From Vicingaceae bacterium (lineage in GTDB: Bacteria > Bacteroidota > Bacteroidia > Flavobacteriales_E > Vicingaceae), in the NCBI GenBank assembly GCA_965267605.1, contig OZ254088.1, positions 1,354,790 through 1,418,789 on the forward strand: 64,000 nucleotides of DNA. The letters run 5' to 3'. Position 1 is the stretch's first letter. Each line of letters begins with the position of its first letter. The notes under the pieces were generated by a model, which searched no databases, had not been told where the DNA came from, and worked only from the letters and a program-made list of their open reading frames with translations. The position numbers and the translations under genes were made by a program. Positions 4,872-8,467 of this stretch are shown in pieces.

Positions 4872-5206
4872 TGGCTAAGAAGAAAAAGAATATCGTCTAC
4901 TCAACCAATCCTGACTTTAGCTACGAATATGACGAAGAACAGGAAGAAGACACAATCTCTCCAGGGCAACAAAACCTTAGAGTGATGATCGATAGGAAAA
5001 ACAGAAAGGGAAAAGCTGTGGTGCTTATCGAAGGGTTCGTTGGCACAAGTGAAGACCTTAATGACCTTGGCCGCTGGCTGAAATCAAAATGCGGGGTTGG
5101 TGGCAACGTTAAGGATGGACAAATCATCATTCAGGGAGACAATCGCAAAAAAGTTGCAACCGTTCTTGAAGAACGTGGTTACAGATTTAAACTGGTAGGT
5201 GGTTGA
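4871..5206 (+). CDS. SUI1/YciH-family translation initiation factor
   Basis: MAKKKKNIVYST...LRVMIDRKNRKGKAVVLIEGF...GGNVKDGQIIIQGDNRKKV matches YciH/eIF1. The ATG overlaps the upstream stop (TAATG). Confidence 0.8.
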   Translation: MAKKKKNIVYSTNPDFSYEYDEEQEEDTISPGQQNLRVMIDRKNRKGKAVVLIEGFVGTSEDLNDLGRWLKSKCGVGGNVKDGQIIIQGDNRKKVATVLEERGYRFKLVGG

Positions 5207-5438
5207 TTAGCTCTACTTGATCCGAGTACTCTTGCAGAACCGTCTTATTGTCTTGCACTTCGATCCAACGGATTTGATTCAAGCCAGTGAGTTTCCACAC
5301 TTCCACAAAGAATCCGTTACACGTGAACAAAGAAACCATGTGTTCTCCCGAAATTCTCGACCCTACGAATTCGCCTTCCTGCTTGAGTATTGAATACCGC
5401 TTCTGAAGTGACAGTTTGCCAAAAGCACGTGCATCCAT
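5187..5438 (-). CDS. Hypothetical small protein (about 83 aa), speculative
   Basis: ORF whose start overlaps the stop of the repeat-protein gene. No recognisable motifs. Confidence 0.2.
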   Translation of the reverse strand: MDARAFGKLSLQKRYSILKQEGEFVGSRISGEHMVSLFTCNGFFVEVWKLTGLNQIRWIEVQDNKTVLQEYSDQVELINHLPV

Positions 5439-7894
5439 CAAAACTTAATCTTGGTTGTGTGGGTTCCCTTCTTCCCTTTGTTTGGGAGTTTAACACCGCT
5501 CTTGTTGTCCTTGGATTCTGTCTTATTCACTTTGAACCCAGCCTTCTCCTCCTCCCTCTGTTTGATGAGGTTCTCAATTTCCTTGATCTTCTGCGTTGGA
5601 TATTCCTTTTCTGGCCACACATCGTGTGCTTCCTGGTACTTGCTCTTGGCTTCTTCCAAAGCATCCTCCTGAAGCTTCTTATCTGCAGCAGCAATCAAAC
5701 TGTTGTATTTGGTTTGCTTTTCCTGCAACTCGGCCCTTCTCTTTGCTTCTGCCTCTTTTTGAGCTTCAATAGCTGCAGCCGCCTTAGCCCGCTCTTCTTC
5801 TTCCTTTAGTATTCTGAGTTCCGCAAGCTTCTTATCTATTTTGGCGATCTGTTCTCTAGGGTATTGCTCGTTCTTCTTGATCCTTGTGGCAAGCAGGTAC
5901 TTATCGCGCGCTGCATCCCATTTCTCCTTGTCATAAAGCGCATCTCCTGAGGATATTAGCCCCCTGTACTTTGTTTCTGTCTCTGATTTAGCTCGCGCTT
6001 CTTCTTCAGCTTTTCTCTTCGCTTCGGCAAGTGCAGCCGCCTTGGCTTCTTCTTCCGCTTTGCGTTTTGCTTCTTCCTCAGCCTTACGTTTAGCCTCTAA
6101 CTCAGCTTTTCGCTTTGCTTCCTCTTCTGCTTTACGCCTGGCTTCTTCCTCCGCTTTCGCCTTCGCCTCAGCTTCGGCTTTCAACCGTGCCTCTTCCTCA
6201 GCTTTTCTCTTCGCCTCCTCCTCTGCCTTGGCTTTAGCTTCAGCCTCTGCCTTCAAACGAGCTTCTTCTTCAGCTTTCCGCTTCGCTTCCTCTTCTGCCT
6301 TCCTCTTTGCATCCGCCTCTGCTTTAGCTTTTGCTTCCGCTTCAGCCTTCAACCGTGCTTCCTCTTCCGCCTTCGCTTTGGCCGCTGCTTCAGCTTTTAA
6401 CCTTGCTTCCTCCTCTGCTTTTCTTTTCGCCTCTTCTTCAGCTTTACGTTTTGCTTCTTCTTCAGCCTTGGCTTTGGCTTCTGCCTCTGCCTTCAATCGC
6501 GCCTCTTCATCCGCTTTCGCCTTAGCTTCTGCTTCTGCCTTTAATCGAGCTTCTTCCTCAGCTTTGCGCTTTGCCTCCTCTTCCGCTTTCAATCGAGCTT
6601 CCTCTTCAGCCTTTGCTTTAGCCTTGAGTCGTGCCTCTTCTTCTGCTTTTCTTTTGGCCTCCGCCTCCGCTTTGGCTTTTGCTTCAGCTTCTGCCTTTAG
6701 ACGTGCTTCCTCCTCTGCTTTCCGTTTCGCCTCTTCTTCGGCCTTGCGTTTTGCTTCTTCCTCCGCCTTCGCTTTAGCTTCTGCTTCCGCTTTCAATCTG
6801 GCCTCTTCTTCCGCTTTACGTTTTGCTTCCTCCTCCGCTTTTCTTCTGGCCTCCTCTTCTGCTTTCGCTTTCGCCTCCGCCTCTGCTTTCAGGCGAGCTT
6901 CTTCCTCCGCCTTTGCCTTAGCCTCAGCTTCAGCTTTAAGTCGCGCTTCTTCCTCAGCTTTTCTCTTCGCCTCTGCCTCTGCTTTGGCTTCCGCTTCTGC
7001 TTTGAGGCGTGCTTCTTCTTCCGCTTTCGCTTTAGCATCAGCTTCTGCCTTAAGCCGCGCCTCTTCCTCCGCCTTGGCTTTAGCTTCTGCTTCTGCTTTC
7101 AAACGTGCTTCTTCCTCAGCTTTAGCCTTTGCCTCGGCCTCAGCTTTCAACCTTGCCTCTTCTTCGGCTTTGCGCTTCGCTTCTTCTTCCGCCTTAAGTT
7201 TATCATCTTCCAATCTCTTCAGAGCCGCTTCGGCTTCTGCTAGTTTCGCCTTAGCGGTAGCATCTCCTGGTTTTGCGGATAACGCTTTTTGAAAACTACT
7301 CTTGGCACCATTGTACTCTTCCTTACCCATCTTTCGCGTACCATCCGCCATTGCATCTTCGTACAACAACTGCTTTCTACGCTCCTCTTCCTTCTTACGA
7401 TCATACTCCTCCAACAGGTCAGCAATTCTGTTCTGCATTTTGCTGGTATAAGCGAAATCCCAATCAATTTCATTGGAAGACGCATTGTACCTCGAAATAC
7501 CTATAGGTTCATTAAGGAGCGAGAAGTTCACCCCCGGAATATTTTCGAACAACGACATCTCCACAAAGAAGTCCTTGATCTTATACATCTTGTCTGCAGG
7601 CACCCCCTTGGTATCGATCTTGATCTTCTTACTTACATAACCACTCATGGAAAACTTGATCATGTAAATGTGTCCGAAACGAAGATCATACTGGAACTTA
7701 CCATTGGAAGCTGTACTACCTGTTTTGTAAGCGTTTCCGTCTTCTTTGATATCAACAGTAACACCGCTCAGCTTATCGCCCCTTTCAAAGTGCTTCACCA
7801 CACCAGAAAGCTCCAGCGTAGCCTCCTCTTCCTGAGCAAACAAATAGCCTACAGGAAGCAATAACAGTAAGGAAAGCAGGTGTTTTATCATCAA
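5438..7894 (-). CDS. Secreted protein with an N-terminal carboxypeptidase-regulatory-like (CarbopepD_reg) domain, TPR-like helices, and a central Glu/Lys/Ala octad-repeat region of about 430 aa (ER/K single-alpha-helix-like spacer)
   Basis: Signal peptide MMIKHLLSLLLLLPVGYLFAQ. The N-terminal CarbopepD_reg-like fold is LSGVVKH...GKFQYDLRFGHIYMIKFSMSGY. There are about 55 consecutive AEEEA(K/R)(R/L)K / AEAEAKAK octads. Both flanks are TPR-like. Confidence 0.75.
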   Translation of the reverse strand: MMIKHLLSLLLLLPVGYLFAQEEEATLELSGVVKHFERGDKLSGVTVDIKEDGNAYKTGSTASNGKFQYDLRFGHIYMIKFSMSGYVSKKIKIDTKGVPADKMYKIKDFFVEMSLFENIPGVNFSLLNEPIGISRYNASSNEIDWDFAYTSKMQNRIADLLEEYDRKKEEERRKQLLYEDAMADGTRKMGKEEYNGAKSSFQKALSAKPGDATAKAKLAEAEAALKRLEDDKLKAEEEAKRKAEEEARLKAEAEAKAKAEEEARLKAEAEAKAKAEEEARLKAEADAKAKAEEEARLKAEAEAKAEAEAKRKAEEEARLKAEAEAKAKAEEEARLKAEAEAKAKAEEEARRKAEEEAKRKAEEEARLKAEAEAKAKAEEEAKRKAEEEAKRKAEEEARLKAEAEAKAKAEAEAKRKAEEEARLKAKAKAEEEARLKAEEEAKRKAEEEARLKAEAEAKAKADEEARLKAEAEAKAKAEEEAKRKAEEEAKRKAEEEARLKAEAAAKAKAEEEARLKAEAEAKAKAEADAKRKAEEEAKRKAEEEARLKAEAEAKAKAEEEAKRKAEEEARLKAEAEAKAKAEEEARRKAEEEAKRKAELEAKRKAEEEAKRKAEEEAKAAALAEAKRKAEEEARAKSETETKYRGLISSGDALYDKEKWDAARDKYLLATRIKKNEQYPREQIAKIDKKLAELRILKEEEERAKAAAAIEAQKEAEAKRRAELQEKQTKYNSLIAAADKKLQEDALEEAKSKYQEAHDVWPEKEYPTQKIKEIENLIKQREEEKAGFKVNKTESKDNKSGVKLPNKGKKGTHTTKIKF
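5970..7220. repeat. Coding tandem repeat: about 50 near-identical 24-bp units (gct-tcN-tcN-gcc/ttt-Ncg-ctt-tgc...) inside the 5438..7894 gene
   Basis: Visible periodicity on the + strand (gcttcttcctcagctttgcgctttgcctcc...). It encodes the AEEEAKRK/AEAEAKAK octads on the - strand. Confidence 0.85.
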
Positions 7895-7960: not shown

Positions 7961-8467
7961 GTGACAATGAGAAAAGTATTAGCGATTCTAGCATGTGCTA
8001 CCCTAATAGCATGCTCGGGAGGTGAAGGAAATGGAGAAAACGGAGGCGATGCAGCCGGAGAATGGAAAGTGAGCTTTGACGCTTTAATGAGCGAGCATCA
8101 GGATTTCATGGGGGCTTATAATGCCAAATTGGACGAATTGGAAGAATGGGCCGGCAAGCACGAGCAGAAAGGTGATTCATCTTTTATGGCACTCGAAGAA
8201 ACACACACTTCCATGCTTGAAAAGCACGAGGACTGGATAGAAGAATACGCATTCAACATTAAAGACCACGAGGACCTTAAGGCTGCTTACGATGCTGGTG
8301 AATTAACTGAAGAGGAGCTTAAAGCAGATATTGGAACCATCGATGGTCATACACAAGGGATCAAAGATGCCCGTGAAGGGATGCTTCAGACCATTGATGG
8401 AATGATCACAGAACACATGCAAGCCGTTTCCAGCAATGATGATGACGGCTTCGAAGATGATCTGTAA
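7961..8467 (+). CDS. Acidic lipoprotein, hypothetical
   Basis: Lipobox LIACSGG after a signal peptide. The sequence is Glu/Asp-rich and helical, with no known domain. Confidence 0.5.
   Translation: MTMRKVLAILACATLIACSGGEGNGENGGDAAGEWKVSFDALMSEHQDFMGAYNAKLDELEEWAGKHEQKGDSSFMALEETHTSMLEKHEDWIEEYAFNIKDHEDLKAAYDAGELTEEELKADIGTIDGHTQGIKDAREGMLQTIDGMITEHMQAVSSNDDDGFEDDL

What the first reader, a model, noticed from the sequence alone, without database searches (positions are those of the whole stretch)
5970..7220. About 55 tandem E/K/A octads form a predicted single-alpha-helix spacer of about 430 residues in a CarbopepD_reg/TPR protein
The centre of the 5438..7894 protein is an almost perfect array of AEEEA(K/R)(R/L)K and AEAEAKAK octads. 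These are encoded by about 50 near-identical 24-bp DNA units. The i/i+4 Glu-Lys/Arg spacing is the hallmark of ER/K single alpha helices, which form rigid rods about 60 nm long at this length. The N-terminal side is a secreted CarbopepD_reg-like beta-sandwich and both flanks are TPR-like, so the repeat is a spacer between two folded ends. Near-identical DNA units should be hypermutable in copy number by slipped-strand or recombination events. They are also a hazard for short-read assemblies, which may collapse or expand them.
Basis: partly seen in the sequence, partly recalled or inferred. Interest (0 to 1): 0.55.

Follow-up and report, generated by a model that had tools for sequence, protein, structure and literature searches.

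The report
Long charged helix spacer, Bacteroidota protein
A secreted protein of an uncultured Flavobacteriales-like bacterium carries a roughly 420-residue Glu/Lys/Ala helix where its nearest relative has 13 small folded repeats; this is a long example of a known kind of helical spacer, and its DNA is not repetitive enough to be unstable.

Summary
The protein repeat is real. ORF 5438..7894 (-) has an uninterrupted run of 423 residues made only of A/E/K/R/L/D (aa 214-636), about 50 octads of AEEEARLK, AEAEAKAK and AEEEAKRK. Opposite charges at i/i+4 occur 226 times against 77±7 in shuffles. There is no heptad seam. AlphaFold on the single sequence draws one 435-residue helix. The flanks are as described: a signal peptide, a carboxypeptidase-regulatory-like beta-sandwich, and one plus two TPR-like units.

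The DNA claim is wrong. No two octads share the same 24 bp. Third-codon-position identity (0.33) is at the level of shuffled synonymous codons (0.38±0.02). The longest exact repeat is 26 nt, and every 27-mer is unique. This array is therefore neither a slippage hotspot nor an assembly hazard.

The syntenic ortholog P0005 has the same ends but 13 TPR-like units in place of the array. Other members of this large uncharacterised Bacteroidota family have independently grown DNA-homogeneous arrays that do vary in copy number (53 vs 39 octads between 98%-identical flanks).

The array is a new member of a known kind: a single-alpha-helix or TolA-domain-II-like spacer. It is not TolA. At about four persistence lengths it is semi-flexible rather than rigid. 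Its function is inferred, not shown.

The parts
5438..7894 (-). Gene for the 818-aa secreted repeat protein. The ORF listing starts it at TTG 7894; ATG 7891 is the likely true start. Stop codon TGA at 5440..5438.
   Evidence: ORF list. Family homologues. Positional ortholog P0005 in the syntenic locus L001.
7835..7894 (-). Signal peptide MMIKHLLSLLLLLPVGYLFA, with predicted type I cleavage before Gln21 (the Bacteroidetes 'Q-rule').
   Evidence: Sequence. This Gln is an invariant column in the 46-sequence alignment A1. Q-rule: PMC5837995. The cleavage itself is inferred.
7460..7819 (-). N-terminal carboxypeptidase-regulatory-like (prealbumin-like) beta-sandwich with an extra beta-hairpin extension, aa 26-145.
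   Evidence: AlphaFold pLDDT >90, all-beta. Foldseek: 1qmu_A carboxypeptidase D domain II E 6e-5, CnaB2, transthyretin. The Pfam CarbopepD_reg_2 and CarboxypepD_reg hits fall below the gathering score.
7211..7366 (-). TPR-like unit 1 (aa 177-228). Its last helix runs straight into the array.
   Evidence: Unit HMM hit at 178-228. AlphaFold helices with pLDDT >90. This stretch matches many times in relatives.
5987..7255 (-). E/K/A array: a 423-aa run of A/E/K/R/L/D only (aa 214-636). The octads proper are aa 235-636 (5987..7192). Predicted charged single alpha helix.
5816..5971 (-). TPR-like unit 2 (aa 642-693).
   Evidence: Unit HMM hit at 643-693. Aligns to P0005 unit 15. pLDDT >90.
5558..5710 (-). 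TPR-like unit 3 (aa 729-779).
   Evidence: Unit HMM hit at 730-780. Aligns to P0005 unit 16. pLDDT >90.
5441..5557 (-). Basic, probably disordered C-terminal tail ending ...TKIKF (aa 780-818).
   Evidence: pLDDT <50. Similar tails ending in Phe occur in P0005 (...PTKIKF), P0006 (...VKVSF), P0025 (...SNVVF) and P0216 (...NKIKF).
5187..5438 (-). Small 83-aa gene whose ATG overlaps the stop codon by one base (TGATG). It is probably co-translated with the repeat protein.
   Evidence: Sequence. 54% identical to the equally overlapping 81-aa gene of L001. No Pfam or NCBIfam family.

Best explanation
The array is the coding region for one very long, highly charged, alanine-rich alpha helix of the single-alpha-helix (SAH, ER/K-like) or TolA-domain-II kind. 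It is about 400-435 residues long, with a contour length of 60-63 nm. It is continuous with the last helix of TPR-like unit 1 and the first helix of TPR-like unit 2.

The helix works as a semi-flexible spacer that needs no partner. It holds the N-terminal beta-sandwich away from the C-terminal TPR-like units and basic tail in a Sec-exported, signal-peptidase-I-processed envelope protein of a Flavobacteriales-like Bacteroidota bacterium.

In evolutionary terms it is a hypertrophied copy of the short E/K/A linker that joins TPR-like units throughout this protein family. In this lineage the linker expanded and replaced 13 TPR-like units. The synonymous sites have since been fully randomised while the peptide stayed nearly perfect, so the array is old, is under purifying selection at the protein level, and is genetically stable.

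Shown: the sequence pattern, the helix prediction, the fold of the flanks, the orthology and replacement, and the DNA heterogeneity. Inferred: the monomeric state, the spacer role, the cellular location, and the order of evolutionary events.
For: (1) Charge pattern. There are 226 opposite-charge i/i+4 pairs against 77±7 in shuffles, and almost no like-charge i/i+4 pairs (3). There is no 3.5-residue periodicity and only 5% hydrophobic residues. At most 0.375 of a/d positions are hydrophobic in any 28-residue window.

(2) The commonest octad AEEEAKRK differs by one inserted Ala from the designed heptad AEEEKRK. A 98-residue polymer of that heptad was shown experimentally to be a monomeric, elongated, highly helical SAH (PMC5347031).

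(3) AlphaFold on the single sequence gives one helix over aa 212-646 with pLDDT 70-86. With an alignment, the flanking TPR-like helices have pLDDT >90 and run into the array.

(4) Export is supported by a hydrophobic signal peptide and a family-invariant Gln at +1 (PMC5837995).

(5) P0005 lies in a fully syntenic locus. It matches aa 6-219 at 46% identity and aa 638-818 at 43%. It has 16 TPR-like units where this protein has 3. Its linkers carry the same motif, for example AEAKRKAEEEAKAKE.

(6) Among 212 family members in hand, the median longest charged run is 30 residues; 20 have runs of 100 or more and 5 of 200 or more. The array is therefore a derived and recurrent state.

(7) The DNA is at synonymous saturation. 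This contrasts with P0151 and P0152, whose arrays are 87-88% identical between successive units and contain exact repeats of 131 and 123 nt.
Against: - No experiment shows that the array is monomeric or helical.
- AlphaFold with the 46-sequence alignment breaks the array into five helices of 43-111 residues, separated by low-confidence coil (pLDDT 40-70). Hinges or fold-back cannot be excluded. However, the alignment in this region is forced against non-homologous TPR-like units.
- Ala content (34%) is far higher than in classical ER/K helices.
- In the designed series, a small rise in Arg content (AEEEKRR) led to oligomers (PMC5347031).
- Characterised and predicted SAHs usually span 40-200 residues (PMC5347031), so this one lies outside the tested range.
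- The cellular location is unknown. A 60-nm helix is longer than a typical periplasm is wide (own knowledge).
- If the array were only a spacer, near-perfect conservation of three specific octad sequences is more constraint than expected.
Confidence: 0.6

Rival explanations
1. The array is helical but not single. It pairs with itself, either by folding back as an antiparallel hairpin or bundle or by joining other chains into a coiled-coil-like fibre, using its alanine faces and periodic leucines.
For: - Ala is 34% of residues and occupies positions 1 and 5 of every octad. Leu recurs every 16-32 residues.
- AlphaFold with an alignment breaks the array into five helices.
- The designed AEEEKRR polymer oligomerises (PMC5347031).
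Against: - There is no 3.5 or 3.67 periodicity of hydrophobic residues, and hydrophobic content is 5%.
- A period of 4.0 residues drifts 40 degrees per step around a helix, so no straight seam can form (inference from helix geometry).
- The breaks have low confidence and disappear without the alignment.
Confidence: 0.17
2. This is the first reader's reading: the array is a hypermutable tandem repeat, a contingency-type locus whose copy number changes often by slippage or recombination, and which short-read assembly may collapse or expand.
For: - The mechanism is real for related sequences. The E. coli tolA repeat tract varies from 8 to 16 copies among 234 isolates, and it contracts in a RecA-dependent way at 6.9e-5 (PMC3477136).
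- Family members P0151 and P0153 have 98%-identical flanks but 53 vs 39 octads. P0152 and P0165 have 59 vs about 17. Their DNA is homogeneous.
Against: In this window no two units are identical. The synonymous sites are random (0.333 against a null of 0.378±0.021). The longest exact repeat is 26 nt, and all 27-mers are unique. These are poor substrates for slippage or RecA-dependent recombination, and any assembler with k of 27 or more resolves them.
Confidence: 0.06
3. The protein is a TolA-type or TonB-type force transducer, or a functional stand-in for one, as the NCBIfam TolA hit and the JGI name 'membrane protein involved in colicin uptake' suggest.
For: - TIGR02794 tolA_full scores 114 bits, above its cut-off of 59.
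- TolA domain II is an extended helix of Lys1-2-Ala3-4-(Glu/Asp) repeats (PMC10666116).
- Tol-Pal loci were not detected in Bacteroidetes (PMC12204202).
Against: - The hit covers only profile positions 87-242, which is the low-complexity domain II.
- The N-terminus is a cleavable signal peptide followed by a beta-sandwich, not a membrane anchor with the SHLS motif.
- No TolA or TonB C-terminal domain appears among the Pfam hits.
- The neighbours are peptidases, a lipid kinase, SUI1 and a dehydrogenase, with no tolQ/tolR or exbB/exbD.
Confidence: 0.03
4. The array is a disordered polyampholyte tether, or a charged surface brush, rather than a stable helix.
For: - It has very low complexity, about 60% charged residues and near-zero net charge (134 acidic, 124 basic).
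- Confidence in the AlphaFold run with an alignment is low to medium.
Against: - Ala, Glu, Lys, Arg and Leu are all strong helix formers, and the array contains no Gly, Pro, Ser or Thr.
- The i/i+4 salt-bridge pattern is perfect in both directions.
- Closely similar designed repeats are helical from pH 2 to 10 and in 4 M salt (PMC5347031).
Confidence: 0.07
5. The array is an assembly or annotation artefact, for example a chimeric or mis-expanded repeat, or the true gene lies on the opposite strand.
For: Long open frames also exist on the opposite strand, for example 6042..7292 (+), 416 aa.
Against: - The DNA is unique at k of 27 or more, so there is nothing for an assembler to collapse or expand.
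- The frame is open for 818 codons and both ends match homologues.
- The antisense frame reads ASSSALRF..., the mirror image expected from GCN/GAR/AAR codons, and has no homologues.
Confidence: 0.02

Closest known systems
Charged single alpha helices (SAH, ER/K motif) of myosin 6, 7a and 10, INCENP and caldesmon, and the designed (AEEEKRK)n / (AEEEKKK)n polymers
   Same: - Dense Glu and Lys/Arg with i/i+4 pairing in both directions.
- No hydrophobic seam.
- A continuous helix is predicted.
- It sits between two folded parts as a spacer.
- The octad AEEEAKRK is the designed heptad AEEEKRK plus one Ala (PMC5347031).
   Different: - An 8-residue rather than 7-residue or irregular repeat.
- 34% Ala, far more than in natural ER/K helices.
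- Length of 400+ residues against the usual 40-200.
- A bacterial, exported protein.
- The monomeric state is untested.
TolA domain II of Proteobacteria
   Same: An Ala/Lys/Glu-rich tandem repeat forming an extended envelope helix (PMC10666116). Its length variation has functional effects, and its DNA repeat can vary in copy number (PMC3477136). TolA profile models score this protein above their cut-off.
   Different: There is no membrane anchor, SHLS motif, C-terminal TolA domain or tolQR neighbourhood. The array is two to four times longer than a whole domain II (100-300 aa). The DNA units here are fully diverged.
Family members with DNA-homogeneous arrays (metagenomic P0151/P0153 and P0152/P0165, annotated 'membrane protein involved in colicin uptake')
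   Same: The same N-terminal domain type, TPR-like units and E/K/A octads. P0151 has 53 copies of AEEEAKRK within a 464-aa charged run.
   Different: - They belong to other subfamilies. N-domain identity is 25-31%. They have a different C-terminal domain ending W..ET., and P0152 has three N-domains.
- Their arrays are 87-88% identical between successive DNA units, with exact repeats of 123-131 nt.
- Their copy number differs between close relatives.
Positional ortholog P0005 (1276 aa; locus L001, Logan SRR31864789) and the 880-1300-aa relatives P0006, P0025 and P0007
   Same: - Signal peptide, N-domain (46% identity), last two TPR-like units, and a basic tail ending KIKF (43% identity).
- The same gene neighbours, including the overlapping small downstream gene.
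   Different: The middle is 13 TPR-like units joined by E/K/A linkers of 10-25 residues, instead of one 400-residue E/K/A helix.

Membership tests
Charged single alpha helix (SAH / ER/K motif) | High Glu plus Lys/Arg content with enriched i/i+4 (and i/i+3) opposite-charge pairs | tested here: met
   31% acidic and 29% basic residues. 226 i/i+4 opposite-charge pairs against 77±7 in shuffles.
Charged single alpha helix (SAH / ER/K motif) | No heptad hydrophobic seam, that is, not a coiled coil | tested here: met
   No power at periods 3.5, 3.6 or 3.67 for Leu, Ala or charge. 5% hydrophobic residues. At most 0.375 of a/d positions are hydrophobic. No dedicated predictor (COILS, Marcoil, Waggawagga) was available.
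Charged single alpha helix (SAH / ER/K motif) | A continuous helix with no tertiary contacts | tested here: inconclusive
   The single-sequence AlphaFold model gives one helix over aa 212-646, pLDDT 70-86. The model made with an alignment gives five helices with low-confidence breaks.
Charged single alpha helix (SAH / ER/K motif) | Monomeric and highly helical in solution, with non-cooperative melting | not testable with these tools
   Needs circular dichroism, ultracentrifugation and SAXS. The nearest tested analogue, (AEEEKRK)14, meets this criterion (PMC5347031).
TolA (cell envelope integrity protein) | N-terminal transmembrane anchor with the SHLS motif that binds TolQR | tested here: not met
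   The N-terminus is MMIKHLLSLLLLLPVGYLFA|Q, a cleavable signal peptide with a family-invariant Gln at +1 and no His or SHLS.
TolA (cell envelope integrity protein) | C-terminal globular domain III (TolA/TonB C-terminal fold) | tested here: not met
   No such domain appears among the Pfam hits. The TIGR02794 match covers only profile positions 87-242. The C-terminus consists of TPR-like helices plus a disordered tail.
TolA (cell envelope integrity protein) | Encoded with tolQ, tolR, tolB and pal | tested here: not met
   The neighbours are M28 and M1 peptidases, an E1 dehydrogenase, a DAGK/YegS-type lipid kinase, SUI1 and DUF6702.
Carboxypeptidase regulatory-like domain (Pfam CarboxypepD_reg / CarbopepD_reg_2) | Sequence match above the Pfam gathering score | tested here: not met
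   23.7 and 21.3 bits against cut-offs of 32.2 and 32.3. Relatives score up to 33.2 bits.
Carboxypeptidase regulatory-like domain (Pfam CarboxypepD_reg / CarbopepD_reg_2) | Prealbumin-like seven-stranded beta-sandwich fold | tested here: met
   AlphaFold pLDDT >90. Foldseek: 1qmu_A (duck carboxypeptidase D domain II) E 6e-5, rmsd 3.2 Å over 92 columns; also CnaB2 and transthyretin.
Tetratricopeptide repeat (TPR) proteins | 34-residue helix-turn-helix motifs recognised by TPR profiles, stacked in tandem | tested here: inconclusive
   In the window protein the only hit is TPR_11, E 0.63. Relatives with many units pass the TPR_1, TPR_2 and TPR_8 cut-offs on the summed score. Each unit has one TPR-like hairpin plus a third helix and is separated from the next by a linker helix. 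They are isolated 'TPR-like' units, not a stacked superhelix.
Hypermutable intragenic tandem repeat (contingency-type locus) | Tandem DNA units of high identity that allow slippage or homologous recombination | tested here: not met
   67.5% mean unit identity, no identical pair, longest exact repeat 26 nt, synonymous positions at the random level.
Hypermutable intragenic tandem repeat (contingency-type locus) | Copy-number differences between close relatives | not testable with these tools
   No close relative of this gene exists in the collections searched. The nearest is P0005, at 43-46% identity in the flanks.

The most novel reading that the evidence does not exclude
This family has more than 2,000 clusters at 50% identity and is seen here almost only in Bacteroidota, a phylum in which Tol-Pal loci were not detected. 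The most novel reading is that the family consists of envelope 'ruler' or stand-off proteins whose working property is physical length. On this reading a string of 13 TPR-like beads and a single 60-nm charged helix are interchangeable solutions, and lineages tune envelope or surface spacing by expanding or contracting the E/K/A helix. The saturated synonymous sites would then reflect selection to freeze one particular length by removing DNA repetitiveness.
Probability: 0.1. Interest if true: 0.65.

Novelty: new member of a known kind. Interest (0 to 1): 0.33.

Why it matters
In itself this is a long but recognisable example of a charged helical spacer, so it changes little. Three points are useful.

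1. It is a natural experiment. Two positional orthologs keep the same ends but fill the middle with either 13 folded TPR-like units or one helix of about 400 residues. This argues that the middle supplies length or stiffness rather than binding sites.

2. Within one family, DNA-homogeneous arrays vary in copy number, whereas this array is synonymously scrambled. This shows how a repeat protein can be made genetically stable. It also shows that protein-level repetitiveness alone should not be read as hypermutability or as an assembly risk.

3. TolA profile models score such arrays above their curated cut-off. Metagenome pipelines already call relatives 'membrane protein involved in colicin uptake', which is an annotation trap.

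The family itself is large and uncharacterised and may deserve study.

Tried and rejected
- A word-indexed protein search with the N-terminal 232 aa found nothing.
- Exact-sequence look-ups of the 818-aa and 817-aa products found nothing.
- Pattern scans for close relatives in GTDB genomes and JGI metagenomes found nothing. Repeat number therefore could not be compared between strains of this lineage.
- I tried to reach orthologs by synteny through the neighbouring M1 peptidase. That gave 80 loci, the best at 69% identity and mostly Flavobacteriales MAGs. None carries the gene next door.
- PDB sequence hits are compositional only: eL29, IF-2, a Dot/Icm substrate and circumsporozoite protein.
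- The Pfam 'Cornifin' hit and the NCBIfam MSCRAMM hits (ClfA, ClfB, SdrC) are low-complexity artefacts.
- The TPR-like unit weakly resembles the repeats of Myxococcus TraC (NF040658, far below its cut-off). TraC is an outer-membrane TPR lipoprotein (PMC8546572). I did not treat this as a functional lead.
- The promoter and terminator scans were at background level.
- No dedicated coiled-coil or SAH predictor was available. I used my own pair counts and Fourier analysis instead.
- I could not measure end-to-end lengths of models, because the tools return no coordinates.
Full report
**Observation.**
ORF 5438..7894 on the minus strand encodes 818 aa. The first codon is TTG and is followed at once by ATG at 7891, which is the more likely start. 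Residues 214-636 (window 5987..7255) form an uninterrupted run of 423 residues drawn only from A, E, K, R, L and D. The composition is A 34%, E 30%, K 20%, R 9%, L 5% and D 1%.

From residue 235 the run reads as octads. 47 of them fit A[EDA][EAL][EDA]A[KR][RLA]K: 15 AEEEARLK, 11 AEEEAKRK, 11 AEAEAKAK and 10 variants. Two short units (6 and 4 residues) shift the register, and there is one degenerate stretch near the C-terminal end. AEEEARLK is nearly always followed by an AEAEAKAK-type octad. The higher-order units are therefore 16, 24 or 32 residues, which matches the 48-, 72- and 96-nt periods reported by Tandem Repeats Finder. The protein-level observation and the coordinates are thus confirmed.

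**The DNA is not repetitive.**
That is not so.
- No two of the 47 octads share the same DNA.
- Mean pairwise identity is 67.5%. Octads encoding the identical peptide are only 76-80% identical.
- Tandem Repeats Finder reports 60-79% matches.
- Identity between successive units is 0.78 at the first codon position, 0.68 at the second and 0.33 at the third.
- When synonymous codons are shuffled among identical amino acids, third-position identity is 0.378±0.021. The observed 0.333 is at that level or slightly below it.
- The longest exact repeat is 26 nt, against 23.7±3.4 under the same null.
- No 27-mer occurs twice.

The DNA therefore carries no repeat signal beyond what the peptide imposes. The predictions of slipped-strand or recombinational instability and of short-read collapse do not apply to this array.

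**Helix type.**
Opposite charges at i/i+4 occur 226 times against 77.4±6.9 in shuffles, while like charges at i/i+4 occur 3 times. In each octad E2, E3 and E4 pair with K/R6, 7 and 8, and those pair in turn with E2, E3 and E4 of the next octad.

There is no power at periods 3.5-3.67 for Leu, Ala or charge. Hydrophobic residues make up 5%. In no 28-residue window and register are more than 0.375 of a/d positions hydrophobic. The alanines at positions 1 and 5 have a period of 4.0, which drifts around a helix and cannot make a straight seam. This last point is an inference from helix geometry.

AlphaFold on residues 168-676 without an alignment gives one helix from residue 212 to 646 at pLDDT 70-86. 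AlphaFold on the whole protein with 45 homologues gives the same region as five helices of 43-111 residues, separated by low-confidence coil at pLDDT 40-70. In that run the array had been aligned against non-homologous TPR-like units, so I give the breaks little weight, but they keep the question of continuity open.

There is a close experimental analogue. Designed 98-residue polymers of AEEEKKK and AEEEKRK are monomeric, elongated and highly helical over wide ranges of pH and salt, whereas AEEEKRR oligomerises (PMC5347031). The commonest octad here, AEEEAKRK, is AEEEKRK with one extra alanine.

The same paper gives a persistence length of about 15 nm and a usual length of 40-200 residues for such helices. 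At 0.15 nm per residue, the 402-423 residues here have a contour length of 60-63 nm, which is about four persistence lengths. A worm-like-chain estimate (my own calculation) gives an r.m.s. end-to-end distance near 38 nm. The element is therefore semi-flexible rather than a rigid 60-nm rod. Such helices also behave as constant-force springs (PMC4183817).

**The flanks.**
The N-terminus MMIKHLLSLLLLLPVGYLFA|QEEE is a typical signal peptide. The Gln after the predicted cleavage site is one of only four invariant columns in a 46-sequence family alignment. This fits the Bacteroidetes Q-rule for signal-peptidase-I substrates (PMC5837995). The protein has no cysteine, so it is not a lipoprotein, and Pfam lists no type IX secretion C-terminal domain.

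Residues 26-145 fold with pLDDT >90 as a beta-sandwich. Its best structural matches include the regulatory domain of duck carboxypeptidase D (1qmu_A, E 6e-5), CnaB2 and transthyretin. The Pfam sequence matches themselves fall below threshold.

An HMM built from the repeat units of the ortholog finds three TPR-like units, at 178-228, 643-693 and 730-780. In the model each unit is a helix hairpin plus a third helix. The third helix of unit 1 and the first helix of unit 2 are continuous with the array. The last 39 residues are basic, are modelled with low confidence, and end in KIKF.

**Relatives.**
An exhaustive HMMER search with the N-terminal 233 residues found 2,252 cluster representatives, 111 of them at E ≤ 1e-30. 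The best 150 listed range from 234 to 2,668 residues, and the TPR-like stretch matches up to 33 times in a single protein. The family plan is a signal peptide, the beta-sandwich, and a variable number of units of about 51 residues joined by short E/K/A linkers. The names that sources attach to hits are mostly Flavobacteriales, Bacteroidia, Sphingobacteriaceae or Bacteroidaceae MAGs.

The nearest relative, P0005 (1,276 aa), lies in a locus that is syntenic gene for gene with the window. Both have the M28 peptidase, E1 dehydrogenase, DAGK/YegS kinase, SUI1, a small overlapping downstream gene, a divergent gene of about 165 aa, the M1 peptidase and DUF6702. P0005 matches residues 6-219 at 46% identity and residues 638-818 at 43%. 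It has 16 TPR-like units. Its first unit and its last two correspond to the window's three. The 13 units between them (P0005 residues 253-1061) occupy the place of the array.

P0005's linkers already contain the octad motif, for example AEAKRKAEEEAKAKE, and P0025 has KKAEEEARLKAEAEAEARKK. I infer that the array is an expanded linker that replaced the units.

Among 212 family members in hand, the median longest charged run is 30 residues. Twenty have runs of 100 or more and five have 200 or more.

**Arrays elsewhere in the family.**
Members of other subfamilies carry comparable arrays built from different units. P0151 has 53 copies of AEEEAKRK. P0152 has about 30 copies of AEEEARIKAEQEAKRK. Their DNA is homogeneous: 87-88% identity between successive units, third-position identity 0.66-0.74, and exact repeats of 123-131 nt. 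Their copy number differs between close relatives. P0151 and P0153 have 98%-identical flanks but 53 vs 39 octads. P0152 and P0165 have 74-87%-identical flanks but 59 vs about 17 octads. These differences come from metagenome assemblies, so assembly collapse cannot be excluded for them.

It does not fit the array in this window.

Near-identical octads also occur in unrelated architectures: a PorP/SprF protein, OmpA-domain proteins, a PDZ protease, kinases, cyclases and diatom proteins. The motif is a commonly reused helical spacer.

**Not TolA.**
The NCBIfam TolA model TIGR02794 scores 114 bits against a cut-off of 59, but only over profile positions 87-242, which is the low-complexity domain II. 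The features that define TolA are listed in PMC10666116: a membrane anchor with the SHLS motif, a C-terminal domain III, and association with the TolQR motor. The anchor, the domain and a tolQR neighbourhood are all absent here. JGI's name for relatives, 'membrane protein involved in colicin uptake', rests on the same compositional match.

**Mechanism and confidence.**
The best-supported reading is an exported protein in which a beta-sandwich head and a TPR-like tail are held apart by one long, semi-flexible charged helix. That helix is a derived, hypertrophied version of the family's inter-unit linker.
- I consider it very likely that the array is helical.
- I put the chance that it is a monomeric single helix at about 0.6.
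- Its role as a spacer or spring, and its location in the envelope or on the surface, are inferences.

The near-perfect conservation of three specific octads over a time long enough to randomise the synonymous sites means purifying selection on more than bulk composition. A pure-spacer model does not fully explain this.

**Novelty.**
This is a new member of a known kind. The organism has no close relative in the collections. The neighbouring M1 peptidase is at most 69% identical to those of Flavobacteriales MAGs. No protein closer than P0005 was found.

Noticed in passing
window 5187..5438 (-): An 83-aa ORF has an ATG that overlaps the repeat gene's stop codon by one base (TGATG). The same arrangement, with a 54%-identical 81-aa protein, occurs in the syntenic locus L001 (9831..10076). 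It has no signal peptide and no Pfam or NCBIfam family. It may be a co-translated partner or chaperone.
   Followed up: partly
window 7961..8467 (+): A divergently transcribed 168-aa protein has a lipoprotein-type N-terminus (...LIAC|SGGEG) and an acidic, His-rich body. A 165-aa gene sits in the same position in L001 and L002; its sequence was not compared. No family was assigned (only a weak SHOCT hit, E 0.004).
   Followed up: partly
window 5441..5557 (-); C-termini of P0005, P0006, P0025, P0216, P0197: The subfamily that contains the window protein lacks the small C-terminal domain (consensus ...YPxGVTEE...RIVV...YYFKNG...W..ET) found in most family members. It ends instead in a basic, disordered tail whose last residues alternate and finish in Phe (TKIKF, VKVSF, SNVVF, NKIKF). 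This recalls a beta-strand-augmentation or outer-membrane targeting signal.
   Followed up: no
L001 10080..11705 compared with window about 5187..5206: The ortholog's locus has an extra gene for a type IX secretion cargo (DUF2341, Laminin_G_3, Por_Secre_tail) between the small downstream gene and SUI1. The window has no such gene; there the small gene and SUI1 converge and overlap by about 20 bases.
   Followed up: no
window 6042..7292 (+), 5390..5809 (+), 7289..7864 (+): Long open frames lie antisense to the repeat gene; one of 416 aa reads ASSSALRFASSS.... They are shadow ORFs produced by the GCN/GAR/AAR codon pattern. They are not genes, but a gene caller could be misled.
   Followed up: yes
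window 5438..7894 (-); relatives P0151, P0152, P0153: NCBIfam's TolA equivalog model TIGR02794 scores these non-TolA proteins well above its curated cut-off (114-129 bits against 59.45), through the low-complexity domain II alone. Pfam 'Cornifin' also hits. This is an annotation trap.
   Followed up: yes
proteins P0203, P0190, P0234, P0245, P0206, P0217, P0249, P0209, P0233: The same 16-residue super-repeat (AEEEARLKAEAEAKAK or AEEEAKLKAEAEAKAK) recurs in unrelated architectures: PorP/SprF, OmpA-domain proteins, a PDZ protease, a kinase, and even diatom proteins. This suggests convergent use of one optimal helical spacer sequence.
   Followed up: partly
proteins P0152 and P0165; locus L004 3380..7087: These relatives carry three tandem copies of the whole module 'beta-sandwich plus one TPR-like unit' before their E/K/A array. 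The head of the protein can therefore be multiplied as well.
   Followed up: no
proteins P0001 and P0005: The family's TPR-like unit matches residues 32-85 of the NCBIfam model for Myxococcus TraC, an outer-membrane-exchange accessory lipoprotein. There are up to 11 matched stretches, but the total score is far below the cut-off.
   Followed up: partly
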